From Myxococcales bacterium (lineage in GTDB: Bacteria > Myxococcota_A > UBA9042 > JABWCM01 > BTVJ01), in contig BTVJ01000058.1 of the NCBI GenBank assembly GCA_045863395.1, forward strand, positions 1 through 46,626: a DNA stretch of 46,626 bases, read 5' to 3'. The notes beneath the pieces were generated by a model, which made no database searches, was not told the origin of the DNA, and saw only the letters and a program-made list of their open reading frames with translations. Position 1 is the first letter of the stretch, and each line of letters opens with the position of its first letter. This document shows positions 11,129 to 44,432 of this stretch, piece after piece. The position numbers were made by a program, and so were the translations under genes.

Positions 11129-11157
11129 ATCCTATGACCGCGGAACCGCAAGGTCAA
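11129..11157 (-). promoter_or_regulatory. Putative sigma70 promoter for the tRNA (and downstream zinc-ribbon/rnpB region)
   Basis: Minus strand TTGACC-N17-TAGGAT, about 25 nt upstream of the tRNA 5' end. Confidence 0.6.
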
Positions 11158-12097: not shown

Positions 12098-12173
12098 GGC
12101 CTGCACCATAGATCGCGCCGCTGCGAAACAGCAAGCACCTTGACGCGGCCGCTCCCGTCGGCAGGATGGGTCC

Positions 12174-12950: not shown

Positions 12951-12998
12951 CACGTCAACCCGCCGCCGCGTCGCCCCGTTGGTCGAGCCCCCTTGCGG

Positions 12999-13027
12999 TT
13001 GCCACCCAGGCGCCCCGCCGGTATCCT
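12999..13027 (+). promoter_or_regulatory. Putative sigma70 promoter of the ATPase-helicase operon
   Basis: TTGCCA-N17-TATCCT, followed by GGGAGG and TTG at 13057. Confidence 0.5.
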
Positions 13028-13056
13028 GCCGTGCCACCACCACCCGGGAGGGACCG

Positions 13057-13911
13057 TTGGGCACCGACACCAAGGCCGTAATCAAGCACGTCGAGGGCCT
13101 GGCCTCGGCGTTCAAGGACCTCGCCGCCGCCGCCCGCCAGCTCGCGAAGCTGGACCCCGAGCTGGAGCGCAACGTGTGGGTGGCCGACGCGGCGCTCGTC
13201 TCCGCGGAGAAGGCGCTGTCCACCGTGGGCGCCGTCGTGCCCCTGGCGGACGCGCGAGCCTGGGTGGGCGTTCTGCGCCAGCGGGTCGACGCGCTCAAGG
13301 ATCGGGCGCGCTCCCAGACCGCGGCTGCCCTGTCCCGGGAGCTGGCGGCGTTGGGCCTGGGCCTGGAGGGGACCATCCCGGAGCTCCGCTGCGGCGTGCT
13401 CACCCTGGAGCTGGTCTTCGAGCGCGCAGAGGTGCGGATCCACTTCGGGCCGCGCATCGCCCAGCTCGCCAAGGCGCCGCTCGACGCCAAGGAGGCGGCG
13501 GCCGCGGTCAAGGCGGCCCTGGACGCCCTGTCGCCGGCCCCGCTGGACGAGCCTGCGTACATCGCGGAGGTCCACGGGGCGTGGCGCCGGGCGTGCCTCC
13601 TCGGCGGCCAGGACACCGCCACCGGCGCGACGGTCCCCATCGTCGCCGTGCTCGATCAGATGGCGTGGGGTCGCCAGAGCGCCCGGTTCCGCGCCAACCC
13701 CACGCGCGAGAGCTTCGAGGGCTACGGGCGCGTGCAGCTCGCGTGGGATCTCTACCGCCTGTCGCTCCGCACGCACGGGGACCTGGAGCTCAAGCTGACC
13801 GTCGCCACCCGAGAGCAGACCCGCTCCGAGGCCGAGAACCTGTGGGTCCCGCGCACGGCCCGGGGGGAGGGCACCCACTTCGCAGGCGTGGCCTTCCGGA
13901 GGACCGCATGA
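13057..13911 (+). CDS. Hypothetical protein, first gene of the ATPase-ATPase-helicase operon
   Basis: TTG start with GGGAGG RBS; 284 aa; helical N-terminus; stop overlaps the next ATG (ATGA). No recognised domain. Confidence 0.75.
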   Translation: MGTDTKAVIKHVEGLASAFKDLAAAARQLAKLDPELERNVWVADAALVSAEKALSTVGAVVPLADARAWVGVLRQRVDALKDRARSQTAAALSRELAALGLGLEGTIPELRCGVLTLELVFERAEVRIHFGPRIAQLAKAPLDAKEAAAAVKAALDALSPAPLDEPAYIAEVHGAWRRACLLGGQDTATGATVPIVAVLDQMAWGRQSARFRANPTRESFEGYGRVQLAWDLYRLSLRTHGDLELKLTVATREQTRSEAENLWVPRTARGEGTHFAGVAFRRTA

Positions 13912-15170
13912 CGGTGCCCATCGAGCGCCCCCTCGCGCGCCGCATCATCGAGACCGTCGGCGCCTACGGGGCGCCGCCCGAGTGGGGCTTCCAGCTCTTC
14001 AGCGCCGGCATCGGCCCCTACCTGGACGTCCTCGACAAGGACTACCTGGGCGACTTCATCGCCGGGGGCGGGGCCTCCTTCAAGCTCGTGGTGGGGGCCT
14101 ACGGCGGCGGCAAGACCCACTTCTTGTATTCGGTGCGGGAGCTGGCGTGGCGCCACCGTTACGCGGTCGCCTACGTGCCCCTGTCCGCGGAGGAGAGCCC
14201 GCTGCATCGACTGGAATTGGTCTACCGCGCCATCGTGCAGAGCCTGACGCCGCCGCTGGAGCCCGAGGAGCTGTTTCGCGGGGCGGAGCGCGGCTTCGAC
14301 GCCTTCTTGAAGAGCTGGCTCGCGGAGACAAGGGCTCGCCTGGCCGCCGAGGGGCTGACCGGGACGGAGCTCAAGGCCGCGCTGCTCGCCGAGGCGGGGC
14401 GCAGCCTGGACGAGGTGGAGAGCGTCAACTTCTGCCAGGCGGTGCGCCACCTGGTCGAGGCGCTCGTCGAGGGCCGCGACGACGATGCCCTGAACGTCCT
14501 CCAGTGGATCACGGTGCAGGGCTACGACCGCATGACCCACAAGCAGTATGGCATCCTGCACCCGGTGGACCGCAGCCACGCCTTCTCGATGATCCGCTCG
14601 CTGGTCCGGTGGGTGCGGAACCTGGGCTACACGGGCCTCGCCATTCTCTTCGACGAGGCGGAGCAGGTGCCGAGCCTGTCGAGCAAGCAGCGCGAGATCA
14701 TGCTCTCCAACCTGCGCGAGATCGTCGACGAGTGCGGCCACGCGGCCTTCCGCAACGTGCTGATCCTGTACGCCATCCCCGACATGGGCTTCTTCGAGGG
14801 GCGCTCCAACGTGTACGAGGCGCTCAAGCAGCGCATCTCGACCGTCTTCGACTTCGTCAACCCCACTGGCGTGCGCATCGACCTGGAGCGGGTCATGGGT
14901 GGGGAGCCGGTCGCGCTCCTGCGAGAGATCGGCCAGCGCCTCGCGGACATCTTTCAGGCTGCGTTCGCCGTGACGCTCGCGGAGGATCGGGTCGCCCTGG
15001 CCCTGCGCCTGGTCGCCGAGGCCGCCTACGAGCAGCGCTTCGGGGACATCGGGTACAAGCGCGTCTTCGTCCAGGGTGCGGTCCGGGCGCTCCACAGCCT
15101 GCGCGCCCTTCCCGATCTGCGCCCGGATGAGGCGTGGGCGGCGGGCATCGTCGCGGGGGCGCCGGCGTGA
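13908..15170 (+). CDS. P-loop ATPase, DUF2791 / BrxD / Shango SngB-like
   Basis: ASFKLVVGAYGGGKTHFL (Walker A); GYTGLAILFDEAE (Walker B); ELVYRAIV motif; ATG 13908 after GGAGG. Confidence 0.8.
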   Translation: MTVPIERPLARRIIETVGAYGAPPEWGFQLFSAGIGPYLDVLDKDYLGDFIAGGGASFKLVVGAYGGGKTHFLYSVRELAWRHRYAVAYVPLSAEESPLHRLELVYRAIVQSLTPPLEPEELFRGAERGFDAFLKSWLAETRARLAAEGLTGTELKAALLAEAGRSLDEVESVNFCQAVRHLVEALVEGRDDDALNVLQWITVQGYDRMTHKQYGILHPVDRSHAFSMIRSLVRWVRNLGYTGLAILFDEAEQVPSLSSKQREIMLSNLREIVDECGHAAFRNVLILYAIPDMGFFEGRSNVYEALKQRISTVFDFVNPTGVRIDLERVMGGEPVALLREIGQRLADIFQAAFAVTLAEDRVALALRLVAEAAYEQRFGDIGYKRVFVQGAVRALHSLRALPDLRPDEAWAAGIVAGAPA

Positions 15171-16525
15171 GCCTCCGCCGCGGCTCCCAGGTGATGCACC
15201 CACGGTGGCACCGCGGCGTCGTGGTGGACACGCGCCACAAGGGCTTCGACGTGCTGGTGCGCTTCGGGAGCGAGTCGGTGTGGGTCCGCGCCTCGGAGCT
15301 CCGCGCCGAAGCGGAGCCCGAGGTGCCGCCCGAGCAGCTCGCCCGCGCCCGCGCCGCGCGCATGGACCGGGAGCGGCGGGACAACCCCGGGCGTCTCCAG
15401 GACCTGAGGGGACTCTTCGAGGCGCTCCGGTTGGGCATCGTGCCCCACGGCGCCATCGTGGACTGGACCTTCGGCCGGGACCGGGAGGTGAGCGCGATAC
15501 AAGGGTGGCTCGCGGACCAGGCCTACGGGTCCCTGGTGCTGGAGGGCGCCTACGGGAGCGGCAAGACCCACCTCCTCGAGGTGCTCTACGCCAAGGCCAT
15601 CGCGATGGGCTACGCGGTGACCCGCGTGGGCTTCGACCCCACTGAGGCTCCGGCCGCCTTCCCGAAGCGGGTGTACCGCCGCATCGTCCGGGAGGTGAGG
15701 GTCCCCGTCGGTGGTCGCGTCCTCGGGTTCCGCGAGGCGCTGCGGGAGGCCGCGTCGAGCGATGCGGTCCGCGGTCACCCGGTGCTCGGGCCCGCCCTGG
15801 AGCGTATTCGTAGCGGGAAGATGACCGCGAAGAGCTGGGAGGCGCTGGAGGGGCGCGACAGCGGCGCGGACGACGTCAGCGGGCTCCACGACTACACCAC
15901 GACCGCCAACATCTACTGCAACATCCTGTCGGGGCTCGGGAACCTGTTCGTGCAGGCCCACGGCGCGCTCGGCTTCCTCGTGCTCCTCGACGAGGTGGAG
16001 ACCGCCCAGACCTGGCAGTACCACTACCAGTGGAGCCGCGGCATCAACCTGTTCCACGGGCTGTCCTTGACCGCCAACGACCACCCGGAGCTGCTGGACG
16101 AGGCCGTCGTGAAGCGCAAGGACGGCTACCGTGGAGCAGAGACGGGCCTCGTCTATTCGGGGCACAACCGGGTGCCCTACCTGTGGTCGCTGCCCAGCTA
16201 TCTGAAGGTCGTGTTCGCGATCACCCCTGGGGCGTTCACGAAGCGCTTCCTCGACTGGCACCCGGAGCAGCCGGTCCTGACCCTGTCCACGCTGCCGTCG
16301 GACAGCGTGGGCCAGCTCTTCGAGCGTCTGGCCGACGCCTATGAGCTGGTCCACGGGCTCTCTGTGGACCGCCCGGGCCGCGACCTGCTGCTGTCGCTCG
16401 CCAGGCGAAGGTCCCAGGACGGCACGACGCGTGTGACCATCAAGGCGATGATCGAGGCGCTGGACTTTCTGCGCTTCCACCCCGGGCGGCCCGCGAAGGA
16501 CCTGCTCGACGAGCCCGCGTGGTAG
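15167..16525 (+). CDS. Second DUF2791 / BrxD-like P-loop ATPase with small N-terminal SH3/Tudor-like domain
   Basis: FEALRLGIVP..GRDREV, LEGAYGSGKTHLL, GFLVLLDEVE. N-terminal VMHPRWHRGVVV..VLVRF. GTGA overlap with the previous gene. Confidence 0.8.
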   Translation: MSLRRGSQVMHPRWHRGVVVDTRHKGFDVLVRFGSESVWVRASELRAEAEPEVPPEQLARARAARMDRERRDNPGRLQDLRGLFEALRLGIVPHGAIVDWTFGRDREVSAIQGWLADQAYGSLVLEGAYGSGKTHLLEVLYAKAIAMGYAVTRVGFDPTEAPAAFPKRVYRRIVREVRVPVGGRVLGFREALREAASSDAVRGHPVLGPALERIRSGKMTAKSWEALEGRDSGADDVSGLHDYTTTANIYCNILSGLGNLFVQAHGALGFLVLLDEVETAQTWQYHYQWSRGINLFHGLSLTANDHPELLDEAVVKRKDGYRGAETGLVYSGHNRVPYLWSLPSYLKVVFAITPGAFTKRFLDWHPEQPVLTLSTLPSDSVGQLFERLADAYELVHGLSVDRPGRDLLLSLARRRSQDGTTRVTIKAMIEALDFLRFHPGRPAKDLLDEPAW

Positions 16526-18102
16526 ACGAGGTCGCGCTGACGGCGCGGCTCCGGCGTCGCCTGGGATCACTGTGGCAGCCGCTCTTCGGGCGCTTCGGGC
16601 GCCTGACTCCCATCCAGCTCGCGCTGATGCCCGCGCTGCTCTCCGGGCGCGACGCGCTGGCCTGCGCGCCCACGGCCAGCGGCAAGACCGAGGCGGCCGT
16701 CGCCCCGGTGGCGCTCCGGCTCCGGGAGGGGAGGGCCGGGGGCATCCGCGCCCTCTGGGTGGTGCCGACCCGGGCGCTGGTCAACGACCTGGACCAGCGC
16801 CTGCGCGGCCCGCTCCGGGACGCGGGGCTGACGCTTGGCGTGCGCACGGGCGACCGGCGCGAGGTGCGGGCCGGGCGCCTGGAGGACCTGGTCGTCACGA
16901 CGCCCGAGTCCCTGGACTCCATGATCTGCCGGATTCCCGACGCCTGGGGCGGTCTCCAGGCGTGCGTGCTCGACGAGGTCCACCTGCTCGACGGGACGCC
17001 CCGGGGCGACCAGCTCCGCGTGCTGCTGCAGCGCCTCCGCGTCGCTGCGTCTGGAGGTTTCCAGTCCGTGGCCCTGTCCGCGACGCTGCACGATCCAGGG
17101 GCAGTGGCCGCGCGCTACCTGGGCGGGGATGCCGCCGTCATCCAGGTGGGCGGCGCCCGCACCCTGACGCAGACCGTCGTGGGCTCGTTGGAAGAGGCGG
17201 TCGCGACCCTGCGCGCCGAGGAGCGGCACAAGGCGCTGATCTTCGGGAACACCCGCCGGGAGGTCGAGGAGGCCGCCGTCGCGCTCCGGGCTTGGTGGCC
17301 GGGCGACCGCATCGCCGTCCACCACGGCAGCCTCGCCCGCAAGGAGCGCGAGAGCGTCGAGGCTGCGATGCGGTCGTGGCGCTGGGGCCTCCTCGTGGCG
17401 ACGACGACGCTGGAGCTCGGCGTCGACATCGGGGATCTGGACGCGGTGGTGCTGCTTCGCCCCCCGTCGAGCCCTTCGTCCTACCAGCAGCGAATCGGGC
17501 GCGCCAACCGGCGGGAGGCGGTCATCCGCGTGATTGGCGTGGCCACGACGGAGGCTGAGGGCGAGGTGTTCGCGTCCCTGGCCGACCTGGCCCGTGACGG
17601 CGTGGTCGAGGCACGCGGAGATGCGCCCGACCCCTCGGTGCTCGTTCAGCAGACGCTGAGCATCGCGTATCAGCGCCGGGCGGGCGTCCCGTCCGCGGAG
17701 CTCTCGGCGCTCCTCGCGCCCATCGATCCGGGCGGTCTCTTGCCGTCGGTGCTCGCGTGGCTGGCGGACGAGGGCTGGCTACGCCGTGTGGCGGATCGCT
17801 ACGCCCCCACGGATCGCACCATGGACCTGGGGGAGCGCGGCACTTTGCACTCCAACATCCCCGACTCCCGGGAGCTGACGCTGGTGGACACGACGACCGG
17901 GCGCCCCCTCGGGCAGCTCACGACCGGGGCGACTCCCGGCTCGCGGCTCCTCTTTTCGGGGCGCGGCTGGCTGGTGCTCTCCGTGAGCGGCACGACGGCG
18001 ACGGTGGCGCCCATCCCGCGGGAACAGGCCGTGGCGTGGTTCGGCGCGCGCTCCGAGGTGGGCGCCTTCCGGTGGCTGCTGCCGCCGGAGCTGCGTCAGT
18101 AG
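16519..18102 (+). CDS. Lhr-like SF2 DEAD/DEAH helicase (BrxHI / Shango SngC-like)
   Basis: LTPIQ, APTASGKTEAA, PTRALVND, TTPESLDSM, LDEVH, SAT, HHGSL, ATTTLELGVDIGD, QRIGRANR. Confidence 0.9.
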   Translation: MVDEVALTARLRRRLGSLWQPLFGRFGRLTPIQLALMPALLSGRDALACAPTASGKTEAAVAPVALRLREGRAGGIRALWVVPTRALVNDLDQRLRGPLRDAGLTLGVRTGDRREVRAGRLEDLVVTTPESLDSMICRIPDAWGGLQACVLDEVHLLDGTPRGDQLRVLLQRLRVAASGGFQSVALSATLHDPGAVAARYLGGDAAVIQVGGARTLTQTVVGSLEEAVATLRAEERHKALIFGNTRREVEEAAVALRAWWPGDRIAVHHGSLARKERESVEAAMRSWRWGLLVATTTLELGVDIGDLDAVVLLRPPSSPSSYQQRIGRANRREAVIRVIGVATTEAEGEVFASLADLARDGVVEARGDAPDPSVLVQQTLSIAYQRRAGVPSAELSALLAPIDPGGLLPSVLAWLADEGWLRRVADRYAPTDRTMDLGERGTLHSNIPDSRELTLVDTTTGRPLGQLTTGATPGSRLLFSGRGWLVLSVSGTTATVAPIPREQAVAWFGARSEVGAFRWLLPPELRQ

Positions 18103-21100
18103 CAGTAGCCGCAGATCGAGCAGGCGTCCGAGCAGCAGTCGCCTGCGGAGACACAGATCGAGTCGCAGTAGCAGTTGCCGGCGTAGGAGTAGGAGTCGCA
18201 GTTGCCCGCGCAGCCAGTACCCGTCGACCCCATGCAGTAGCCGCAGTTGTCGCAGGCGTCGTTGCAGCAGTCGCCGAAGCCGACGCAGGCGCTGTCGCAC
18301 CAGCACCCGTCCGGTGCTTGCGAGCCGCAGTTGCCGGCGCAGCCGCCGCAGCCGCCGCCGCAGGACTTGCAGGCCGTGGCGCAGGCGGCGTCCCAGATCA
18401 CGGAGCAGCACTCGGGCTTCTGGGCGCAGACGCAGGACTCGCAGGTGCAGCCGGCGCAGGTGGGGTTCGCCCAGGCCTTGCACCCGTCGCTCTTTGGGCA
18501 CATCTCCGGGAAGGCGCAGTCGTCCGCACACGTGAAGCAGTCCTCATCGCCGTTGCACTCGCCGTCACCGCACACGGGGAAGAAGCAGTCAGTGAGGAGC
18601 TTCACGTCGTCCACGAAGATGCCCCCCCCGTCGTGCGCCCAGGCCGTGTTGTCGGCGATGGCGACGAGCTGGAGCCGCACCACCTTGCCGCCCCACTTCT
18701 TCAGGCTCACCGACTGGTTGGTCCACGCGGTGCTCGGGCTGAGGGAGCTGCTCGACCAGGCGAGCTCCTGCTTGCCGTCCACGAGCACGCGCACCTCCAG
18801 GTCGGCGTCGTTATCGGAGTCCAGCACCAGGTCGAAGGTCAGCGCGAGCGTGTAGCTCGGGGGCAGGGCCAGGAGCCCGGTGGTCAGCGAGCTCGTGGCC
18901 GGACCGAAGTTCATGTCCCCGGTCGTCGTGCTGCCGAACCAGAGCGAGCGCAGCCCTGTCTTGGCCTTGGCCGTCGTGAGCTGGAAGCCTCCAGCAGTGC
19001 TCGAGTTCACGATGGTCACGGCGCCCTCCAGCTCCTCCAGCGACTCGAAGCCGAGCGCCAGGATGGGCCCCTCCGGGCAGCAGCCCTCGTCCGCCGCCGG
19101 CCCGTGCTTGCACAGGTGGCCGAACCCGCAGGTGTCCGCCGTACAGGGGTCATCGTCGTCACACTCGGCGTCCTGCTCGCAGCAGGCCCCCGGGTTCACG
19201 CACTGGCCGACAACGCACAGGTCCTCGGTGCAGTCGTCGTCGTCGACGCAGTCCGCGTCCGCGGCGCAGCAACCTGGCACAGCCTCGTGGGTGCAGAGGC
19301 CCCCTGCCACCGGGCAGGAGTCCGTCGTGCAGGGGTCACCGTCGAAGCAGTCCAGGTCGGCCTCGCACGTCTGGAGCCCGCAGTCCTCGCCGCAGCCGAG
19401 CTGGCAGGCAGCGACGCACGTGGCGTCCCACGCGACGGAGCAACAGAGCGGGTCTTTCGCGCACACGCACTCCTCGCAGGCGCACCCGTCGCAGCCGGGC
19501 TCCGGCCGCGCCTGGCAGCCCGCGTGCTCGAAGCAGCCGCCGCAGGTGCCCTGGCACAGGGCCACGCAGTCTGCGTCCCAGGCCGTGTTGCAGCAGTAGC
19601 TGTCCTTCTGGCAGGCGCACGCCTCGCACACGCACCCGCCGCAGGTGGGCTCGGAGCCCTTGACGCACCCGCTGGAGAGAGGGCAGGTCCCGCAGTCGCC
19701 GGGGCAGGTGGCGCAGTTCTCGCCGAAGCTCGGCTCGCAGGCCGTGTTGCCGCAGTGGGCCTCGCAGACGTTTCCATAGCAGGCGGTCCCCTTGGCGCAG
19801 GTCCCGCAGGAGCCGCCGCAGCCGTTGTCGCCGCACTGCTTGCCCGCGCAGCTCGGCGTGCAGGGGCACATGCCGCAGGCCGAGCAGGCGTCCGCGCAGC
19901 AGTCGCCGAAGCTCACGCAGGACGAGTCACACCAGCAGCCGCCCGCGCTGCCGCCACAGTTGCCGACGCAGGAGCTGCCGCCACCGCCGCCGCACACGCT
20001 GAAGTAGTCCGAGCAGCAGTCGCCCCAGAGAGAGCAGGAGGAGTCGCAGTAACAACTGCCGCTCGGAGACGAGCCACCGCAGTTGCCCGCGCAGGAGTTG
20101 GCCCCGCCGCCCCCGCCACCGCAGTTGGTCCCGCACTGGCTGCACTCGTCCACGCACAAAGAGTCCCAGGCGTTGTTGCAGCAGTATGGGTCCATGCCGC
20201 AGACGCAGGACTCGCAGGCGCAGCCGCCGCACCCGGGGCTGTTGCTCTGGGTGCAGCCCCCGTCGGGTGGGGTGATCACGGGCCCGCAGTCCATGCCGCA
20301 GTCACCCTTGCACAGGCCGACGCAGGACTCGTCCCAGTGGACGTTGCAGCAGAACGGGTCGAGGGCGCAGACGCAGCCCTCGCAGGAGCAGCCGCCGCAG
20401 CCGGGCTCTTCCGTCGGCTTGCACCCCGACGTGCACACCACCTTGCCGCCCTTGCACTGGCCACCCTGGCAGGTCTCGCCCTCGGTGCACCCGTTCTTGT
20501 CGTTGCACGGGTCGCCCTCCGAGAGTGTGACGGTCTTGCAGAGGCCCGTGTCGGGGACGCACTGGGTCACGTCGCAGCCCGTGTCCTTGGACGTGTCGCA
20601 CTTGGGGATGGTCGCCGGGTCTGGCTTGCAGTAGCCGCCCAGGCACCGGGTGATGCCGTCGCACAGGTTGCCGTCCTCGTAGGGGGCGCAGTCCGCGTCT
20701 GTCTCGCAGGTCGGGCAGGCCGGCTCACCCGCCTTGCACTCGCCGTCCTCGCAGAAGTCGCTGGCCGTGCACACGTCGCCGTCCTCGCAGAGTCCTGACT
20801 TGGGGAGGTACGTGCAGCCGGTCTTGGCGTCGCAGCCGTCCGCCGTGCAGGGGTTGCCGTCGTCGCAGGTCTTGGGCTTGCCCGCGCACACGCCACCCGC
20901 GCAGGTGTCCCCCGCCGTGCAGGGGTTGTCGTCGTCGCACGCCGCCTTGTTGGGCGAGGAGACGCAGCCGGAGACCGGGTTGCAGGCGTCGTCGGTGCAG
21001 GGGTTGTCGTCCTCGCAGGTCTTCGCGGCGCCAGCGGTGCAGGCGCCCTCCTGGCACGTATCGCCCACGGTGCACTGGTTGCCGTCGTCGCACGGGCTGC

Positions 21101-21434
21101 CGTTGTCCGCCGCCACCGCGGCGCAGGCGCTCGTCTCCGACAGGCAGGCCGCCTTGGTGCAGGGCGCGAGCTCGCCGAGGATCGCCACGCAGTCCGCGTC
21201 TGCCTTGCAGGGGGTCCCGGCGTCCGGTGCAGGCCCGGTGTCCGGGGTGCCCGTGTCCGGCTCGCCCACGTCGGGGGCCCCCATGTCCGGTTCGCCCACG
21301 TCCTCGATGAGTTGGACGTCGTCGGCTGCCCCCGTGTCCTGCGCGCCGGCCGCACTGCCGGCCTCGTCAGGGCACGCGGTCAGCGTGGTTGCCAGCAGCG
21401 CGGCCAGAGCGGTCGACAAAAGGCGCATGGACAT
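18096..21434 (-). CDS. Large cysteine-rich lipoprotein (CDDGNPCT-type repeats, somatomedin-B-like repeats, other Cys repeats, one beta-sandwich domain)
   Basis: ATG 21434 after GGAGG; lipobox TLTAC; repeated CDDxNPCTxDxC; CxGNCGG..CxCDSxCxxxGDCCxD four times; PxCxGCxCExCVC..CC..WDxxC five times. Confidence 0.85.
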   Translation of the reverse strand: MSMRLLSTALAALLATTLTACPDEAGSAAGAQDTGAADDVQLIEDVGEPDMGAPDVGEPDTGTPDTGPAPDAGTPCKADADCVAILGELAPCTKAACLSETSACAAVAADNGSPCDDGNQCTVGDTCQEGACTAGAAKTCEDDNPCTDDACNPVSGCVSSPNKAACDDDNPCTAGDTCAGGVCAGKPKTCDDGNPCTADGCDAKTGCTYLPKSGLCEDGDVCTASDFCEDGECKAGEPACPTCETDADCAPYEDGNLCDGITRCLGGYCKPDPATIPKCDTSKDTGCDVTQCVPDTGLCKTVTLSEGDPCNDKNGCTEGETCQGGQCKGGKVVCTSGCKPTEEPGCGGCSCEGCVCALDPFCCNVHWDESCVGLCKGDCGMDCGPVITPPDGGCTQSNSPGCGGCACESCVCGMDPYCCNNAWDSLCVDECSQCGTNCGGGGGGANSCAGNCGGSSPSGSCYCDSSCSLWGDCCSDYFSVCGGGGGSSCVGNCGGSAGGCWCDSSCVSFGDCCADACSACGMCPCTPSCAGKQCGDNGCGGSCGTCAKGTACYGNVCEAHCGNTACEPSFGENCATCPGDCGTCPLSSGCVKGSEPTCGGCVCEACACQKDSYCCNTAWDADCVALCQGTCGGCFEHAGCQARPEPGCDGCACEECVCAKDPLCCSVAWDATCVAACQLGCGEDCGLQTCEADLDCFDGDPCTTDSCPVAGGLCTHEAVPGCCAADADCVDDDDCTEDLCVVGQCVNPGACCEQDAECDDDDPCTADTCGFGHLCKHGPAADEGCCPEGPILALGFESLEELEGAVTIVNSSTAGGFQLTTAKAKTGLRSLWFGSTTTGDMNFGPATSSLTTGLLALPPSYTLALTFDLVLDSDNDADLEVRVLVDGKQELAWSSSSLSPSTAWTNQSVSLKKWGGKVVRLQLVAIADNTAWAHDGGGIFVDDVKLLTDCFFPVCGDGECNGDEDCFTCADDCAFPEMCPKSDGCKAWANPTCAGCTCESCVCAQKPECCSVIWDAACATACKSCGGGCGGCAGNCGSQAPDGCWCDSACVGFGDCCNDACDNCGYCMGSTGTGCAGNCDSYSYAGNCYCDSICVSAGDCCSDACSICGYCY

Positions 21435-21558
21435 GGGGAAGCCTCCAAAGCGGGCAGCGGGAGTGCGGACCAACCTAGCATCGGCCGGCTGTCGCATCAA
21501 GCGGGCCCCGCGCGGTGGCGGGCGGAAGATCGCGGCGGGGACTGGGGGGCTCGATCGC

Positions 21559-22365
21559 TCAGAGGGCGGCGACGCGCGTCCAGGCGCGGTGCTCCTCGGC
21601 CAGGGGCAGGGCGCGCGACGCCGCGAGCACCACCTCGGCGTAGGCCGCCGTCTCGGGGGTGTCCACGTCCTGCCAGAAGTCGTCGCGGCCGATGGGGTGG
21701 ACCAGGGCGAGGTCAGCGCGGCCAAGGCGCCTCATTCCGTCCGACAGGGAGCAGTCTCCGCGGGCGGCCCGCTCGGCGGCCAGGGCGTCGAACAGCCCGC
21801 CCGTGCACGAGAACAGCCCCGTGTCGATGCAGTCGTAGGTGGTCAGGTCCTTGCCGATGGCCGCGATGCGGTGGCCGTCGGTGCACACCTTGGTCGCGTC
21901 GTCCATGTCGAAGATGGAGCCCAGGTCCGGGTCCACGGCCAGCACGACGCCGCCCTCGGGGGGGCTGACGCGGGCCATGGCGTGGACCATGCCCGGCGAC
22001 AGCACGTGATCCGACATGGTCAGCAGGAAGGGACCCTTGACATGGGGCGCGGCGCACAGAACGGAGACGCCGTTGGACAGGTTCCACTCCACATTGTGGA
22101 TGAAGTCTACTCCAACGCTCAGCCCCTCGAAGCGCCGGGTAGCGGCGACGATCTCGTCGGCCCGGTAGCCGACGACCACGTGCACGCGCTCGATGCCAGC
22201 CTCCTCCAGGACGGAGAGGGTCCGGTGAAGCAGGGGCCGCCCTCCGACCGTTCTCAGTGGCTTGGGGATCTCGTGGCCGTTGAGGCGGGAGCCGAGGCCC
22301 GCCGCGAGGATCACCGCCTCGCGCGCGACGGGTCTGGACGGGACGGCGTAGAGCTTGGTGGGCAT
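21559..22365 (-). CDS. Nucleotidyltransferase, closest in motif pattern to inositol-1-phosphate cytidylyltransferase (IPCT) / LicC-like CTP transferases
   Basis: AVILAAGLGSRL, PKPL, NGVSV, FLLTMSDH, DATKV, IGKDLTTYDCIDTGLF, WQDVDTPE. Confidence 0.8.
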   Translation of the reverse strand: MPTKLYAVPSRPVAREAVILAAGLGSRLNGHEIPKPLRTVGGRPLLHRTLSVLEEAGIERVHVVVGYRADEIVAATRRFEGLSVGVDFIHNVEWNLSNGVSVLCAAPHVKGPFLLTMSDHVLSPGMVHAMARVSPPEGGVVLAVDPDLGSIFDMDDATKVCTDGHRIAAIGKDLTTYDCIDTGLFSCTGGLFDALAAERAARGDCSLSDGMRRLGRADLALVHPIGRDDFWQDVDTPETAAYAEVVLAASRALPLAEEHRAWTRVAAL

Positions 22366-28356: not shown

Positions 28357-30900
28357 TCACGGGGTAGTCGCCGGCCTCCACCGCGGGAGCACGGACGCGG
28401 ACGCCGCGACGGCGAGGCCCACCAGCAGCGCGTTGCAGAGCGCGAACACGAACAGCGGCACCGCGTGCATCGTGAACCAGTGGTTGTCGAGCTCGTACTC
28501 GAAGCTTGCGAAGGCCCCGAACGCCTGGATGAGGAAGGCGCCCGCCAACGCCGCGGCCAGGGGGCGCAGGCTCGCCGCGTCGCCGGAGGCCACCCGCTGG
28601 TGGACGGCGGCGGCGACCAGCACGAGCCACGGGGCCAGGTGCTGGGCGAGGATCAGCGCGAAGCCCTCCCCGAGGTTCAACGCCTCGCGGGTCGCGGCGA
28701 AGGCGACGGTCACGTCGATGGCAGAGAAGGACCACCCGTACCCGATGGCCAGGAACCAGGACTGCCACGCCAGCATGACCAGGGCGGCGGCCATGGGCGC
28801 GCTCCCCCGGCCCCGGGAGCGGACGCCGGAGAGCGCGTAGGCCGCGCCCGCGAGCAGGACGAGCAGCAGGACCCGCGCGTCGAGGCTCAGGGCCCGGTAG
28901 AGCACGAGCGCCGTCGCGAGCACGAGGTCGAGGCGCTCCCCCGAGGTGGCGGCGCGGGGGAGCAGCAGGAAGGGGACCACGAGGGCCGGCAGCACCGCCT
29001 TGACGAGCCACGGGAGGCTCAGGGCGTGGCACAGGGCGGCGGCGACGCCCACCGCGACGAGCGTGAGCCAGGGGAGCCAGGCGCGGCGGCCTCGGAGCGC
29101 CAGGGCGCCCACCGCCACCAGCAGGGCGGCGTTCGCGGCGATGGTGCTGGCCGTGGTGTCCTCCAGGCGCCCGTCTCCCTCGGGGAGCAGCGCGGGGGAC
29201 ACCGCGCGGAGGGCCGCGAGCGCGGCGAGTGCGCCACCGACGCGCAGGAGCGCCCCCCGGTCCCGCCGGTGCGCCCACGCGACCAGACCGAGGGCGGCGA
29301 CGAGCAGCAGGCCCCAGGTCTGCTCCAGAGGCCCGTAGGGCCAGCGCATGACGCTCTGGCCAAGGAACAGCACCAGCACCGCCCACGCGACCCACTCGGG
29401 GCGCGCCTCCATCAACGTCCGCGAGCGCCGCACGAGCCACACGATGACCGCGAGGGCCGCGACTCCGCTGGCCACCAGGGGGCCGTGCCAGGCGAGGTGG
29501 CCCCATGAGCGCCCCAGCTCTCCGAGCAGCCAGACGACGGTGAACTGCCAGTCGGCAAAGACAAGGAGCGCCCAGGACAGGGCTCCCCAGGCGAGGGCTG
29601 GGCGCAGCGGGGCGGGGGCGCCCGACTCCCTCGCCAGGAGCCAGAGCAGCCCGACCATCAGCGCCAATCCCAGGGCCATGCCGGTGGCGCGCTTGCCGGA
29701 GCGGCCCTCCTGGGTGGCGGCGAGCAGCGTCTGGAGGAGGCCCATGCCGTTGGACGCGAGCACGACGGCCTGTTCGGTGCGCCCCTGATCCAGCTCGAGC
29801 AGGGCGCGATCCGGGGAGCCGTCCGCGGGAAGCTCCAGCGCACGCCCGATCATGGCCAGCGAACCTTCGGCGTAGCGGTGACGCGCCGCGAACTGGGCGA
29901 CCACCTGGGCCGCCTGGGCTCGCGCGTCCAGGGTGAGCAGCGCGAAGCTCGCCGGGACCTCCGCGGTCCGCGGTGCGCGCACGCCCATCAGCGCGGCGAG
30001 GGTTGGCGCCAGGGCGTTGAGGGGCTGCTCGATCCGCTCGCACGGTGCAATGCCCGCCCCGGCCACAGCGAAGGGGGCGCGGCGGGCCTCCTCCTCTCCT
30101 CCGCCGTGGTTGCCGGCGAGGGTCGCCCCGTGGTCCGAGGTCAGGAGCCACGTACCCCGGTCGCCGAACCGCTCGACGAGGGCGCCGACCCGCGCATCGA
30201 TGGCCGCCGCCCGCCGGGCGTAGAAGCTCAAGGACCCGTCCGGCTCGCGGCTGTGGGCGCCGTGGGCGTGGGCGGCCTTGTCGGTGCCGACCACATGGAG
30301 GATGATGACGTCCCACCGTGGGTCGGCGAGGACGCGCTCCGCCTCGTCGAAGATCTGGGCGTCCGTCGCGATCATGTCGTCGTCGGCACCCTTGTAGAAC
30401 CCCGTGTCCGGGATGGACAGCGTGTGCTCTGCCGTGACCCCGAAGAGCTGCGTCCAGGACGCATCCCCGAGCAGCGCGATGCGCCGCCCCGTGTCCCGGA
30501 GCAGGGCGAGCACGCTCTCGTCCTCGAAGGGCTCTGCGTCGAAGTTCTTGAGGGACCACGAGATCGATGGCGTCATACCCGTGCCCATGTTGAGCACCGA
30601 CATGGTCGTCAGTGTCATCGGCGGCGTCACGGAGACCCCGGAGGCGCCGCGTGCGGCCAGCCGGGACCAGTGGGGCATGATCGCCGGGTCGGACGCGATG
30701 TCCTCTCGGAGGGCGTCGACGACCACCACCACGAGGCGGTCCGTCAGGGCCTTGCCGACCCGGGGCGATGCGGCGGTGGGCGGTGGAGCCGGGCGCTCCG
30801 CCAGGTACAGGTCGTGGCCGACGTGTCCGAGGGCGACCACGGCGGCGAGGGTCGCGGCCGTTGCGAGAATCGCGCGTCTGCGGAGGGCGTTTGCATCCAA
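28357..30900 (-). CDS. Alkaline-phosphatase-superfamily membrane enzyme resembling GPI ethanolamine-phosphate transferases (PIG-G/PIG-O/Gpi7-like)
   Basis: N-terminal TM; VVVVDALRED, PPMTLT..GTG, LLGDASWTQLF, WDVIILHVVGTDKAAH, TSDHG, GNHGG; then a large multi-TM C-terminal domain. Confidence 0.8.
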   Translation of the reverse strand: MDANALRRRAILATAATLAAVVALGHVGHDLYLAERPAPPPTAASPRVGKALTDRLVVVVVDALREDIASDPAIMPHWSRLAARGASGVSVTPPMTLTTMSVLNMGTGMTPSISWSLKNFDAEPFEDESVLALLRDTGRRIALLGDASWTQLFGVTAEHTLSIPDTGFYKGADDDMIATDAQIFDEAERVLADPRWDVIILHVVGTDKAAHAHGAHSREPDGSLSFYARRAAAIDARVGALVERFGDRGTWLLTSDHGATLAGNHGGGEEEARRAPFAVAGAGIAPCERIEQPLNALAPTLAALMGVRAPRTAEVPASFALLTLDARAQAAQVVAQFAARHRYAEGSLAMIGRALELPADGSPDRALLELDQGRTEQAVVLASNGMGLLQTLLAATQEGRSGKRATGMALGLALMVGLLWLLARESGAPAPLRPALAWGALSWALLVFADWQFTVVWLLGELGRSWGHLAWHGPLVASGVAALAVIVWLVRRSRTLMEARPEWVAWAVLVLFLGQSVMRWPYGPLEQTWGLLLVAALGLVAWAHRRDRGALLRVGGALAALAALRAVSPALLPEGDGRLEDTTASTIAANAALLVAVGALALRGRRAWLPWLTLVAVGVAAALCHALSLPWLVKAVLPALVVPFLLLPRAATSGERLDLVLATALVLYRALSLDARVLLLVLLAGAAYALSGVRSRGRGSAPMAAALVMLAWQSWFLAIGYGWSFSAIDVTVAFAATREALNLGEGFALILAQHLAPWLVLVAAAVHQRVASGDAASLRPLAAALAGAFLIQAFGAFASFEYELDNHWFTMHAVPLFVFALCNALLVGLAVAASASVLPRWRPATTP

Positions 30901-31717: not shown

Positions 31718-32641
31718 GTGAAGGTCATCGACCGGACCTTCCTCGCGCTCGGGGTGTTGCTCCTCGGCACGCTCCTGTTGCCCGTGGTGGACGAGGCGGG
31801 CAGGCTCGCGGCGCTCTCCGAGCTGCCAGGCGTCGCGCCGTTCTCGACGCTGGTGAAGGCGCTCTACCCGGCGCTCCTCGGGGCGCTGCTGGTGGTGCTG
31901 GCGCGCTCCGGCGAGCAGGCGCTGGGCAAGGGCGTCGCCGCGCTGGTCGGGTTCCTCTTGCCGGTGACGCTCCTCGACGGCAACCCCATCGTGGAGCTCG
32001 CCTACCTGGGCGCCTGGGAGGAGGCGCCCGGTCACCAGGTGCTGCTCGGCCTCGGCGTGGTGCTGGGCGCCGGGGGATGCCACATGGTGGGCCTCGGGGC
32101 GAGCCACTCCGTGGGGGCGCTGCTCGCCTCCGTGGGCGTCGCCCTCATGGCGGCCTACCACCTGGCCCCGCTGCCGAGCGGCGCGGTGCCCATCATCGTG
32201 ATCACCAAGGAGCTGGCTGGGGCATGGGACACCGGCGGCCTCGCGCTGCTCACCGCGTTGTTCAATCTGGCGCTGGCGGTGCTCCAGGCGGTGGTGTGCG
32301 TCCTCGCGCTGCTCTCCCTCCGCTCCGACGGGCGTGCCCGGAGCACTGCTGGCGCTGGGATCGTCGCGTGGGCCATCGCCGGCCTGATCCCCGCCATCGC
32401 GCTCCCCATCGTCGTCAAGGCCGGGCTGGCCGCCGGGGGAGGGGCCGAGGTGCTCTTCCTGGTCCGCCAGCTCCTGATGCTCTCCGCGCTGCTCATGGGG
32501 GCGCCCCTCGCCATCGCGGCGCTGGGGGTCGGGCTGTCGGCCGCCGATCCCCCCGGTGACCGCTTCGAGGACGCCGCGATGGCCGGCGACGAAGGATCAC
32601 TTCGCGACAGTGGACCCTTCGACGACCCGCCGCTACAATGA
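31718..32641 (+). CDS. Multi-pass membrane protein of unknown function
   Basis: About 8 hydrophobic segments; GC3-rich frame. Confidence 0.7.
   Translation: MKVIDRTFLALGVLLLGTLLLPVVDEAGRLAALSELPGVAPFSTLVKALYPALLGALLVVLARSGEQALGKGVAALVGFLLPVTLLDGNPIVELAYLGAWEEAPGHQVLLGLGVVLGAGGCHMVGLGASHSVGALLASVGVALMAAYHLAPLPSGAVPIIVITKELAGAWDTGGLALLTALFNLALAVLQAVVCVLALLSLRSDGRARSTAGAGIVAWAIAGLIPAIALPIVVKAGLAAGGGAEVLFLVRQLLMLSALLMGAPLAIAALGVGLSAADPPGDRFEDAAMAGDEGSLRDSGPFDDPPLQ
32611..32639 (+). promoter_or_regulatory. Putative sigma70 promoter for the selenoprotein gene
   Basis: TGGACC-N17-TACAAT, about 75 nt upstream of ATG 32713. Confidence 0.4.
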
Positions 32642-32712
32642 GCGGCCGTCTGGGGGCCCCGGACCCGGCCAGACAGGCCGGAGCGGCCCCTCTTCATCAC
32701 CTTGGTGACCTG

Positions 32713-34377
32713 ATGACCCATCGCTCCCTGCGTCGCGCCCGGTGGCTGGGCGCCGCGCTCCTGACCTACGCCATGGCGGCCTGCGGTGGGGCGGAGCAGC
32801 CCACCCCCGCTCCGCCCAAGGCCGTGGCGCCCGCCGCCAATGCACCCGCGGCCCCCGGCGAGCCGAAGGCGGCCGTGTCGCCTCCAGCGGACGCAACGCA
32901 ACACGCAGAGAAGGTCGCGCGGCCCGTGGACCGGGCGACGGGCGAGCCGCTCCCCGCTGAGCGCGTCGCGCGTCCCGTGGATCGGGTGACCGGCGAGCCG
33001 CTCCCGGGCAGGGTGCCGCCGGTCGCGCCGTCCGACAACCTGGGCACCGCCGGGCGCCCTGCGACGGACCTGGCCGTGCCCGGGCGCCCTGCGACGGACC
33101 TGGCCGTGCCCGGGCGCCCTGCGACGGACCTGGCCGTGCCTGGGCGGCCCCCGGTGGCTCCGGCGGACGCGGCCGCGCCACCCTTCGACCCCGCGACGGG
33201 GCGGCCCCTGCAGCGGGATCCGGTGCTCCACGCCGGCGTGCCCCAGGGCCTCGACGGGTTCAAGGACTTCGAGGGGCTGCGCATCGGCCTCCTCCACACG
33301 GCGAACCGGGTCGGCGAGCTCGACCCCTGTGGGTGACGAGTCAATCCGCTGGGCGGTCTTGCCCGGCTCGCGACCTGGCTCCAGACGAACCGTGAGAAGT
33401 GGGACGGGGTGCTCCTCGTCGACGCGGGGAACCTCCTCCACGAGACCCTGCGCCTCGACGAGGCGCTGCGACAGCGTGAGATCGACCGGGGTGAGATGTT
33501 CGTCGACACCTTCAACATGATGGGCTGGGACGCCCAGGGCCTGGGTGAGAAGGACCTGGTCGGCGGGCTCCCCCGCCTGAGGGCCCTCGCGAAGCGCGCG
33601 AAGTACCCGTTCCTGAGCGCGAACCTCGTCGACGCGAGGTCCGACGCCCTGCTTTTCACTCCGCGCGTGATCGTGCAGAAGGCGGGCGTGCGCATTGGCC
33701 TGTTCAGCGTCATGTCGCCTCGTTTTCGTGAGAATGAGCGCATCCTGCCCGAGATCGGCGCCAAGGTGACGGATCCCATCGTAGCGGCCAAGGAGCAGGT
33801 GGAGGCGCTGAAGAAGGAGGGGGCGCAGGTGTTTGTCGCCCTCGCCATGCTCGACAGCGGGCAGGCGGACCAGCTCGCGAAGGAGGTGCCTCAGCTCACC
33901 GCGGTGCTCGGGGCCCAGGAGGGCATGATGCTCAGAAGCCCCCGGGCCGTGGGCAGCACCTACCTGACCGACGCCTTCCAGAAGGGCAAGTACCTGAGCG
34001 CGTTGTCGCTGCTCATCCGCAAGGGGGAGACGGACTTCGTCTTCGAGGACCCGAACCGGCGCCTGTCCATCGAGCGCCGCATCGCGGAGCTGGACGCCCG
34101 CATCAAGGCCCGCGAAGCCGCCATCGCGGACGCCAAGGGCGACCAGGCGCGGGCGCGGAACCTCCAGTGGCTGGAGCAGAACCTGGCGCAGCTCCAGGGG
34201 GAGCGCAAGGCGGCCCAGGTCGAGCTGGACCACGCTGGCGAGGTGAAGCAGGGTCGGAGCCTCATCGCCTACGACTACCCGGAGATGTCCAAGGAGCTGG
34301 CCGACGATCCGAAGGTGCTCGCCCGGGTGGACAAGCTCAAGGCGAAGTACCCGGAGCTGAAGGAGCCGCGGCACTAG
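32713..34377 (+). CDS. UshA/5'-nucleotidase-like selenoprotein lipoprotein (554 aa, Sec at in-frame TGA 33334-33336)
   Basis: ORF-track entries 32638-33336 and 33409-34377 are in the same frame. Read-through gives LHTANRVGELDPCG-U-RVNPLGGLARLAT..LLVDAGN..YPFLSANL..RIGLFSV, an unbroken metallophosphoesterase-like fold. SECIS-like hairpin follows; lipobox AMAAC. Confidence 0.85.
33051..33140 (+). repeat. Perfect 30-nt tandem repeat x3 (GRPATDLAVP) in the Pro-rich linker
   Basis: cgggcgccctgcgacggacctggccgtgcc, three exact copies. Confidence 0.95.
33334..33370 (+). promoter_or_regulatory. Bacterial SECIS-like element
   Basis: TGA, 11 nt, then stem GCTGGGC / loop GGTCTT / GCCCGGC. The loop starts 18 nt after UGA and begins with G. 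Confidence 0.75.
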
Positions 34378-34470: not shown

Positions 34471-35925
34471 ATGTCCCGCCTTCGCGCCCTCGCCCGCGAC
34501 ACCGCCATCTACGGCGTCTCGACCATCGTCGGGCGCCTGCTGACCTTCTTCCTTGTCCCGTTCTACACCAACGTGCTCGCGCCCGGCAGCTACGGCGTGG
34601 TCGCGACGGCCTTCAGCTACATCGCCTTCTTCGTGATCCTGTACGGCTGGGGCATGGAGTCGGCGTACTTCAAGTTCGCCTCCACCGGGGAGCTGGGCGA
34701 CGAGCGGGCGACCTTCGGGACCGCCCAGACGGCGCTCCTCGGCACGTCCGCGCTGTTCTCCCTGCTGCTCGTCGCCCTGGCAGAGCCTCTGGGTGTTCTG
34801 GGTGGTCTGGGCGAAGATGGCGCGACCATCGTCCGATTTTCTGCGGCTATTCTCTTCTTCGACAACCTCTCGCTGCTGCCCTTCGCCGTGCTCCGCCTGG
34901 CGCGGCGGGCAAAGCGGTTCGCGCTGCTGCGGCTGCTCGGCATCGTCCTCAACGTGGCGCTCAACGTCGTCCTGCTGGTCTGGCTGCGGCAGGGGGTGCT
35001 CGGCATCTTCATCGCCAACATCGCGTCGTCGGCGCTGGTGTTCCTGCTGCTCCTGCCCGAGTGGCGGGGGCGGTTCCGCTTCGCCATCGATCGGCCGGTC
35101 CTGCGCGCCATGGCGGCCTTCGCCCTGCCCTACATCCCCGCCGGGGCCGCGTCCATGGTGGTGCAGGTCATCGACAGGCCCATCCTGCTCGCGCTCATGG
35201 ACCAGGCCACCGTCGGCGTCTACCAGGCCTCCTACCGCCTCGGCATCTTCATGATGCTGGTGGTCAGCATGTTCGACTACGCGTGGCGGCCGTTCTTCCT
35301 CGCCCACGCCAAGGACCCGGACGCGCGCGAGCTCTTCGCCCGGGTCATGACCTGGTTCGTGGCGGCTGGCGGCTTCGTCGTCGTGGGAGTGTCGCTGCTG
35401 GTGCGGGATCTGGCGGCCATCGAGGTGTTCGGGCGGCGGCTGATCCACCCTGACTACTGGGGGGGCCTCGCCATCGTGCCCGTGGTGCTGCTCGGCTACC
35501 TGCTCAACGGCGTCTACGTGAACCTCATGGCGGGGGTCTACATCGAGAAGCGCACGGGGGTCCTGCCGTGGGTGACGGGCGCTGGCGCCCTGGCCAACAT
35601 CGTGGTCAACCTTGCGCTGATCCCGCCCATGGGCATGATGGGGGCCGCCGTGGCCACGCTGGTCGCCTACGCCGTCATGGCGGGGGGGCTGTGGCTCGTG
35701 GTGAGGCGCTTCTACCCGGTCGCCTACGAGTGGGGGCGGCTCCTGCGGGTCCTTGCGGCCATGGGCGTCGTGCTGGGGGTGTGGGTTGTCTGGCCCGACC
35801 CGCCCGACGGGGGCACTTGGCTGGGGATCCGCGTCGGGCTGATCCTGGCCTACCCCCTGGCCCTGGTGCTGCTCGGCGTGGTCGGGCGGGACGAGCTGGC
35901 GGCGCTCTCGCGCCTGCGGAGGTGA
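34471..35925 (+). CDS. Oligosaccharide flippase (Wzx / MOP superfamily)
   Basis: LARDTAIYGVSTIVGRLLTFFLVPFYT, IDRPIL, VGVYQASYRLG, NLALIPPMGMMGAAVATLVAY; about 12-14 TMs. Confidence 0.88.
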   Translation: MSRLRALARDTAIYGVSTIVGRLLTFFLVPFYTNVLAPGSYGVVATAFSYIAFFVILYGWGMESAYFKFASTGELGDERATFGTAQTALLGTSALFSLLLVALAEPLGVLGGLGEDGATIVRFSAAILFFDNLSLLPFAVLRLARRAKRFALLRLLGIVLNVALNVVLLVWLRQGVLGIFIANIASSALVFLLLLPEWRGRFRFAIDRPVLRAMAAFALPYIPAGAASMVVQVIDRPILLALMDQATVGVYQASYRLGIFMMLVVSMFDYAWRPFFLAHAKDPDARELFARVMTWFVAAGGFVVVGVSLLVRDLAAIEVFGRRLIHPDYWGGLAIVPVVLLGYLLNGVYVNLMAGVYIEKRTGVLPWVTGAGALANIVVNLALIPPMGMMGAAVATLVAYAVMAGGLWLVVRRFYPVAYEWGRLLRVLAAMGVVLGVWVVWPDPPDGGTWLGIRVGLILAYPLALVLLGVVGRDELAALSRLRR

Positions 35926-44256: not shown

Positions 44257-44432
44257 GGGCGGGAGGTGTAGCACTCGGGGGCCTCTCGGCGCAAACCAGC
44301 GGCGACTGCATGTGAGGTCAGCAGACCGTGTCAGATCCTGCCGGTGCCGTCTCTAAGGAGAGTGCGGGTGGCGCTCGGTCGAGCGCAGCCCCATCCACTC
44401 CAGGTCGCTCGGCGACTCAGAAGGAGACTCCC

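What the first reader, a model, noticed from the sequence alone, without database searches (positions are those of the whole stretch)
28357..30900. Full-length bacterial homologue of eukaryotic GPI ethanolamine-phosphate transferases (PIG-G/PIG-O)
Seen: N-terminal TM, a catalytic domain with DALRxD, PxTxT (Thr nucleophile position)..TG, GDxxWxxLF, WDVxILHxxGxDxxxH, xDHG and GNHGG in order, then a long multi-TM domain containing WFLAIGYGWSFSAIDVTVAF. Known: this motif series and architecture are those of Gpi7/PIG-G and Gpi13/PIG-O (DALRxDF, PPTVT, GDDTW, LHYLGLDHIGH, GDHGM, GNHGG), and differ from bacterial EptA/LtaS, where the TM domain is N-terminal. Inference: a eukaryote-like lipid-to-glycan phosphoethanolamine transferase acting on an unknown bacterial glycolipid, relevant to the origin of GPI anchoring.
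Basis: partly seen in the sequence, partly recalled or inferred. Interest (0 to 1): 0.8.

Follow-up and report, generated by a model that had tools for sequence, protein, structure and literature searches.

The report
Full-length bacterial cousin of GPI transferases
This myxobacterial gene encodes a membrane enzyme that matches, along nearly its whole length, the eukaryotic enzymes that add phosphoethanolamine to GPI anchors; it belongs to a large unstudied prokaryotic family that probably decorates a surface glycolipid, although this bacterium shows no GPI pathway.

Summary
The 847-aa minus-strand ORF and all quoted motifs are real. The catalytic domain matches eukaryotic PIG-G at profile level (E 1e-48) and keeps a full two-metal site and Thr98. 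The whole predicted structure superposes on predicted PIG-G, PIG-O and PIG-N models with TM 0.70-0.76 over 710-760 residues. The membrane half's profile matches PIG-G's (score 43.7; shuffles at most 21; known homologues PIG-G and PIG-N score 37). It is one of at least 142 full-length relatives from Myxococcota, Planctomycetota and Thermoplasmatota. None of the prokaryotic rows in my trees nests inside PIG-N, -G or -O; they are sister to PIG-G/O or to all three, and the direction is unresolved (AU p 0.19 and 0.21). Against: no Pfam PIGO_PIGG or PigN hit, a TM-only structure search missed them, and no PIG-F, PIG-M/B/V or GAA1 was found (mostly silent controls). Best reading: a periplasm-facing lipid-headgroup-to-glycan phosphotransferase; donor and acceptor are untested. 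The scan noted this family before on other DNA (four notes).

The parts
28357..30900 (-). Gene for the 847-aa membrane phosphotransferase (P0002), apparently monocistronic: convergent neighbour ends at 28347, divergent neighbour starts about 30961
30802..30879 (-). N-terminal signal-anchor helix (aa 8-33) after a cytoplasmic RRR; puts the catalytic domain outside
   Evidence: positive-inside inference
29926..30744 (-). Alkaline-phosphatase-superfamily catalytic domain (aa 53-325): D62, T98, D207, H211, D256, H257, H265
30607..30609 (-). Codon of the predicted nucleophile Thr98 (aligned with the second Thr of PIG-G PTVT; Thr in 130, Ser in 11 of 142 relatives)
29707..29925 (-). Helical stalk (aa 326-398) between catalytic and membrane domains
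28390..29700 (-). C-terminal membrane domain, 15 predicted TM helices (aa 401-837), homologous to the PIG-G/O/N membrane region
28690..28755 (-). Conserved outward-facing loop aa 716-737 with D729 (D or E in 134 of 142), aligned with PIG-G FF.LGNSN...T.D.S.AY.G
28477..28485 (-). N806-H-W808 at the outer end of the last helix, aligned with the PIG-G/O R.HL..W and PIG-N GSWL motifs (W in 111 of 142)

Best explanation
An inner-membrane, periplasm-facing, two-metal (probably zinc) ping-pong phosphotransferase built like the eukaryotic GPI ethanolamine-phosphate transferases. The membrane domain holds a phospholipid donor. Thr98 attacks its phosphodiester, releasing diacylglycerol and forming a phospho-headgroup-Thr intermediate. 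The headgroup is then passed to a sugar hydroxyl of a lipid-linked glycan held at the same membrane face by the conserved outward loops (R669-D674, F716-D729, N806-W808). Donor most likely phosphatidylethanolamine (about 45% given transfer); acceptor most likely a surface glycolipid or lipid-carried polysaccharide unit, possibly inositol-containing. SHOWN: fold, metal ligands and nucleophile conserved, full-length homology, family and tree position. INFERRED: topology, transferase chemistry, donor, acceptor.
For: Metal ligands nearly invariant in 142 relatives: D62 140, D207 142, H211 142, D256 141, H257 142, H265 142. Whole-protein TM 0.75/751, 0.70/710, 0.72/721 (PIG-G), 0.71/730 (PIG-N), 0.75/760, 0.76/756 (PIG-O) between Atlas-predicted models. 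TM profiles: 43.7, 33.9, 28.3 against PIG-G, -O, -N; 25 block shuffles each gave means 13-16, max 21; reversed 13-14; flippase and LtaS-like TM controls 9-16. The PIG-G/O profile's single scored hit at E<=1e-10 in this genome is this gene, E 1.4e-23. Alternating K/R-rich inside loops put all three conserved TM motifs on the catalytic side. Glycan genes lie within the fetched loci in 28 of 53 loci of at least 11 kb (11 of 29 synteny groups) against 8.5% of random windows of this genome (biased, see against). One relative has three paralogues in 11 kb with a GT2, two GT4 and a methyltransferase. The genome makes PE (Psd) and inositol-1-phosphate. PIGN, PIGO and PIGG add EtNP to GPI mannoses (PMC8222316, passages); GPI synthesis is zinc-dependent and these enzymes carry alkaline-phosphatase-like zinc sites (PMC2172251, passages).
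Against: No activity data. P0002 hits only PF01663 (37 bits) and weakly PF01676, not PF19316 or PF04987; 1 of 58 relatives scanned had a weak PF19316 hit (E 0.041); no NCBIfam hit. HMMs of the eukaryotic TM regions did not rank this protein among 56,005 ORFs of the genome. The TM-only Atlas structure search returned no GPI-EPT (best TM 0.31), though its feature search ranked PF19316 and PF04987 clusters first at 0.76-0.78, lead level only. The TM-scores compare predicted models (query pLDDT 0.68). The closest solved fold of the catalytic domain is a hydrolase (NPP). The neighbour test is biased: the profiles were built from these neighbours, missed the window's own flippase, and the baseline is another genome. 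The gene's own neighbours are a dipeptidase and unknown proteins.
Confidence: 0.62

Rival explanations
1. A membrane-bound phosphodiesterase or phospholipase-C-like hydrolase: same chemistry, but water is the acceptor, so it trims lipid headgroups or phospho-substituents rather than adding them.
Against: A hydrolase does not need a conserved 15-helix domain that superposes on three transferase families; conserved outward loops match PIG-G/O/N motifs.
Confidence: 0.17
2. A transferase whose acceptor is a glycan on a surface (lipo)protein rather than a free glycolipid.
For: The three closest relatives (69-78% identity) run without a stop into a lipoprotein-like tail with an L-S-G-C lipobox, an acidic Thr/Ala-rich linker and carboxypeptidase-regulatory/VWA-like domains; the paralogue in this genome lies next to lgt.
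Against: Only 3 of the 17 close family members listed carry the tail; the window gene stops cleanly and this genome has only short 32-47% matches to the tail elsewhere; adjacency to lgt is a single case.
Confidence: 0.12
3. Part of a true GPI-like protein-anchoring pathway in this bacterium.
For: Two family members in the genome, inositol-1-phosphate synthase, three PIG-L-family genes, a borderline Peptidase_C13 hit (22.7 bits), and an IPCT-like nucleotidyltransferase 6 kb away.
Against: No match to PIG-F, Gaa1, PIG-M, PIG-B or PIG-V models in a 97% complete genome (four of these five searches rang in no control genome, so this is weak); PIG-L-family genes rang in 8 of 14 control genomes; the family is patchy within the phylum.
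Confidence: 0.04
4. Evolutionary rival: the prokaryotic long forms came from a stem eukaryote (after the PIG-N versus PIG-G/O duplication) into predatory bacteria and spread, rather than being the source of the eukaryotic enzymes.
For: Catalytic-domain trees rooted on short forms give (PIG-N,(prokaryotic long forms + PIG-G/O)) at 96/95 and 97/94; the long forms I could name are concentrated in Myxococcota and patchy (about 19 of 301 genomes by my reading).
Against: Short forms with the same core are widespread in bacteria and archaea, so the fold is prokaryotic in origin; the long forms are as deeply diverged as the eukaryotic paralogues; the concatenated tree separates all 27 prokaryotic from all 16 eukaryotic rows at 96/93; AU tests reject neither arrangement.
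Confidence: 0.25

Closest known systems
PIG-G/Gpi7 and PIG-O/Gpi13 (GPI ethanolamine-phosphate transferases 2 and 3; PF01663 + PF19316)
   Same: Architecture; Thr nucleophile; N-F and GD..W motifs; two-metal site; whole-protein TM 0.70-0.76; C-terminal TM motifs; 24-33% identity in the catalytic domain.
   Different: No PF19316 hit; outside both clades in all trees; no PIG-F match in the genome; no GPI mannoside acceptor known; membrane domain shorter.
PIG-N/Mcd4 (GPI ethanolamine-phosphate transferase 1; PF04987)
   Same: Architecture; TM 0.71 over 730 residues; the family consensus shares lsrd.E, lK..lP and sfW features with PIG-N's last helices; works without PIG-F as listed in PMC8222316.
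   Different: PIG-N has a Ser nucleophile in an S-R-P-G motif that the short prokaryotic forms share and this protein lacks; no PF04987 hit.
Bacterial lipid-headgroup transferases EptA/MCR-1, LtaS, YejM/PbgA
Nucleotide pyrophosphatase/phosphodiesterase (Xac NPP, ENPP4-7) and PafA
   Different: No polytopic membrane domain.
Uncharacterised short prokaryotic forms (520-620 aa; Chloroflexota, Bacillota, Thermoplasmata, Myxococcota, Acidobacteriota)
   Same: N-terminal TM, catalytic domain, stalk and about five C-terminal helices; TM 0.80-0.81 by their own length; share the G..FS.SA motif (score 25, P 0.009).
   Different: Lack about ten middle TM helices; Ser nucleophile; separate clade (99/94).

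Membership tests
GPI-EPT family (PIG-N/G/O), structural sense | N-terminal TM, luminal alkaline-phosphatase-fold domain, then a large C-terminal TM domain | tested here: met
GPI-EPT family (PIG-N/G/O), structural sense | Two-metal ligand set and Ser/Thr nucleophile | tested here: met
GPI-EPT family (PIG-N/G/O), structural sense | Homologous membrane domain | tested here: met
   TM 0.70-0.76 over 710-760 of 847 residues, predicted against predicted; profile scores above all shuffled and unrelated controls; TM-only structure search did not return them
GPI-EPT family (PIG-N/G/O), structural sense | Groups with GPI-EPTs against other prokaryotic relatives | tested here: met
   99/94 against nine short-form rows; no NPP or sulfatase rows in the careful trees
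PIG-G or PIG-O (orthologue) | Pfam PF19316 above cut-off | tested here: not met
PIG-G or PIG-O (orthologue) | Falls inside the PIG-G or PIG-O clade | tested here: not met
   G, O and G+O are each one side of a branch without prokaryotic rows
PIG-G or PIG-O (orthologue) | PIG-F/Gpi11 partner encoded | tested here: inconclusive
   no PF06699 match in the genome, but no control genome passed the cut-off
PIG-G or PIG-O (orthologue) | Transfers EtNP from PE to a GPI mannose | not testable with these tools
   needs biochemistry
PIG-N (orthologue) | PF04987 hit and Ser-R-P-G nucleophile motif | tested here: not met
EptA/LtaS-type transferases | TM bundle N-terminal to the catalytic domain | tested here: not met
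   one N-terminal helix only; EptA/LtaS layout recalled
GPI-anchoring pathway | Mannosyltransferases PIG-M/V/B and transamidase GAA1/PIG-K in the genome | tested here: inconclusive
   no match for PF05007, PF04188, PF03901, PF04114 with silent controls; borderline PF01650

The most novel reading that the evidence does not exclude
The eukaryotic PIG-G/PIG-O line descends from this long-form bacterial family (best sampled in Myxococcota) separately from PIG-N, and the bacterial enzymes put phosphoethanolamine on an inositol-containing glycolipid, so that a step of GPI chemistry exists in bacteria and predates GPI anchoring.
Probability: 0.15. Interest if true: 0.9.

Novelty: new variant of a known kind. 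Interest (0 to 1): 0.68.

Why it matters
I found no solved structure of any GPI ethanolamine-phosphate transferase by sequence and no paper describing prokaryotic full-length homologues in ten library searches. A prokaryotic family with the complete architecture, plus a shorter core form, gives a stepwise origin for these enzymes (short form, long form, PIG-N/G/O). It also offers single-subunit bacterial proteins for structure and mechanism of a family tied to inherited GPI deficiencies and antifungal targeting (recalled). It predicts an undescribed phospho-decorated surface glycan in Myxococcota, Planctomycetota and marine archaea.

Full report
Observation. The coordinates hold an intact 847-aa ORF on the minus strand, with codon-position GC of 0.75/0.54/0.93. 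The genome is 8.77 Mb, 70.9% GC, 97% complete; close relatives of the protein are labelled Myxococcales. The contig has the genome's GC and bacterial neighbours, and a public 6.5-kb contig spans the gene without a gap, so it is neither an assembly artefact nor eukaryotic contamination.

Family. The word-index search gave 36 proteins, 17 of them close full-length relatives at 40-100% identity. A profile over 1.84 billion representatives gave 951 hits at 1e-30, of which I saw the best 150; 142 sequences of 770-1000 aa formed my working alignment. Of 20 looked up, named clusters were Polyangiaceae, Nannocystis, Myxococcota, Planctomycetota or unassigned. In 301 genomes of the phylum 40 matched at 1e-15; about 19 of these carry long forms by my reading, a lower bound because only three candidates a genome were scored. 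In 351 genomes of the phylum of a Thermoplasmata archaeon 21 matched a PIG-G/O profile, most with 825-950-aa frames; their catalytic profile matches the bacterial family at 397 and their TM region weakly at the same C-terminal motif (24, P 0.03). The Atlas feature search adds a Verrucomicrobiota-dominated cluster. A shorter form (520-620 aa, about five C-terminal helices, Ser nucleophile) occurs in Chloroflexota, Bacillota, Thermoplasmata and Myxococcota. This genome has a second, divergent long form on C18.

Is the membrane half homologous? I collected 38 PIG-G, 20 PIG-O, nearly all fungal, and 13 intron-free PIG-N frames from 80 metagenome loci (PF04987 confirmed for 6 of 6 scanned). Profile-profile scores of catalytic domains: bacterial-G 325, -O 277, -N 238; G-N 168; O-N 114. 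For TM regions: bacterial-G 43.7 (P 7e-5, 117 columns), -O 33.9, -N 28.3, while G-N, known homologues, score 37.0 and O-N 30.0; 25 block shuffles per target gave means of 13-16 and a maximum of 21, reversed profiles 13-14; flippase and LtaS-like TM alignments gave 9-16. An unguided MAFFT alignment of the C-terminal 290 residues lines up the same motifs across all groups. The strongest evidence is structural: the Atlas model of the whole protein superposes on predicted PIG-G (TM 0.75/751, 0.70/710, 0.72/721 residues), PIG-N (0.71/730) and PIG-O (0.75/760, 0.76/756) clusters. The extramembrane part is about 400 residues, so over 300 membrane residues must be aligned. Against: both sides are predictions; the TM-only structure search returned none of them (best 0.31); eukaryotic TM HMMs did not rank this protein in its own genome; Pfam PF19316 and PF04987 are not hit.

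Tree. With 54 rows and 277 catalytic columns (LG+C20 PMSF), rooted on nine short forms, long forms and all GPI-EPTs group at 99/94, and prokaryotic long forms group with PIG-G/O to the exclusion of PIG-N at 96/95. Replacing seven rows by four archaeal long forms and one short form gave 99/94 and 97/94. AU tests reject neither N+G+O (p 0.19) nor bacterial long-form monophyly (p 0.21). A 43-row, 442-column matrix with the C-terminal helices added and the short forms left out splits 27 prokaryotic from 16 eukaryotic rows at 96/93. So the family is sister to PIG-G/O or to all three paralogues; no prokaryotic row sits inside a eukaryotic clade. PIG-N and PIG-G/O have long stems, PIG-O sampling is narrow, and I used 20-24 of 142 bacterial rows, so donor and order of events are open.

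Context. The gene stands alone between a convergent dipeptidase and a divergent secreted protein; a flippase and an IPCT-like nucleotidyltransferase lie 3.6 and 6 kb away. No neighbour is conserved across the family. Glycan genes occur in 30 of 73 loci, 28 of the 53 of at least 11 kb, 11 of 29 synteny groups, against 8.5% of random windows here; the test is biased upward. The genome has Psd, inositol-1-phosphate synthase, eight CDP-alcohol transferases and three PIG-L-family genes, a borderline C13 hit, and no match to PIG-F, Gaa1, PIG-M, PIG-B or PIG-V, with mostly silent controls.

Mechanism and rivals. The most likely function is transfer of a phospho-headgroup from a membrane phospholipid to a lipid-linked glycan in the periplasm through a phospho-Thr98 intermediate (0.62). 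Rivals are a lipid phosphodiesterase (0.17), a protein-glycan acceptor (0.12) and a real GPI-like anchor pathway (0.04). That PE is the GPI donor is recalled, not from a call.

Literature and earlier notes. I read passages of PMC8222316 (roles of PIGN, PIGO, PIGG, PIGF), PMC2172251 (zinc dependence, alkaline-phosphatase-like sites) and PMC10626005 (Myxococcus makes sphingolipids); other papers were seen as listings only. Ten searches showed no paper on prokaryotic full-length homologues; the library is incomplete. Four earlier notes of this scan report the same idea in marine group II archaea, a Thorarchaeon and a probable planctomycete. They led me to fetch the archaeal long forms. One says the membrane half matches nothing known; my results contradict that for this protein and, through the archaeal Atlas cluster (TM 0.70 over 741 residues to this protein), probably for the family, though I could not see those notes' sequences.

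Verdict. Observation confirmed, interpretation partly supported. It works like a GPI-EPT and belongs to the same structural family, but is not a PIG-G, PIG-O or PIG-N orthologue and is not part of a detectable GPI pathway. New variant of a known kind; interest 0.68.

Noticed in passing
window 32638-34377 (+): Two in-frame ORFs joined by one TGA after ...DPCG; read as selenocysteine it gives a UshA-like selenoprotein (NF041198 UshA_like_PCGU, 146 bits on the second part alone, cut-off 275).
   Followed up: partly
window 21562-about 22350 (-): Nucleotidyltransferase whose best NCBIfam match is the inositol-1-phosphate cytidylyltransferase half of IPCT/DIPPS (123 bits, below cut-off). DIPPS/PIP-synthase-like genes lie near family members in L035, L200 and L213.
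   Followed up: partly
P0003, P0004, P0005: The three closest relatives are fused in frame to a lipoprotein-like tail with a lipobox, carboxypeptidase-regulatory and VWA-like domains.
   Followed up: partly
G000:C18:22349-24700 (L001:8350-10700, -): Divergent paralogue (about 780 aa, Ser nucleophile, Cys-rich motif) between cysDN/cysC and lgt.
   Followed up: yes
L034:15247 to L035:7466 (G275): Three paralogues of three subtypes within 11 kb with a methyltransferase, GT2, two GT4 and a radical SAM gene, reminiscent of the eukaryotic trio.
   Followed up: partly
L169, L181, L192, L202, L204, L209, L214: HpnI-like hopanoid glycosyltransferase (266 bits, cut-off 310, tested on L181) and a GtrA-type gene recur beside one Polyangiaceae subfamily; one synteny group.
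   Followed up: partly
window 11135-18102: BREX-like block: two BrxC/D ATPases, a DEAD helicase and a PD-(D/E)XK nuclease.
   Followed up: no
window 34471-35925 (+): Wzx-type flippase 3.6 kb from the gene.
   Followed up: no
window 3-5795 (-), 18096-21725 (-), 44328-46625 (+): Large secreted repeat proteins with TSP_3, Dictyostelium CTDC and EGF/teneurin-like repeats.
   Followed up: no
L040:8577-9740, L043:7232-8491, L046: An Svf1-like lipocalin-domain gene lies next to family members in three loci.
   Followed up: no
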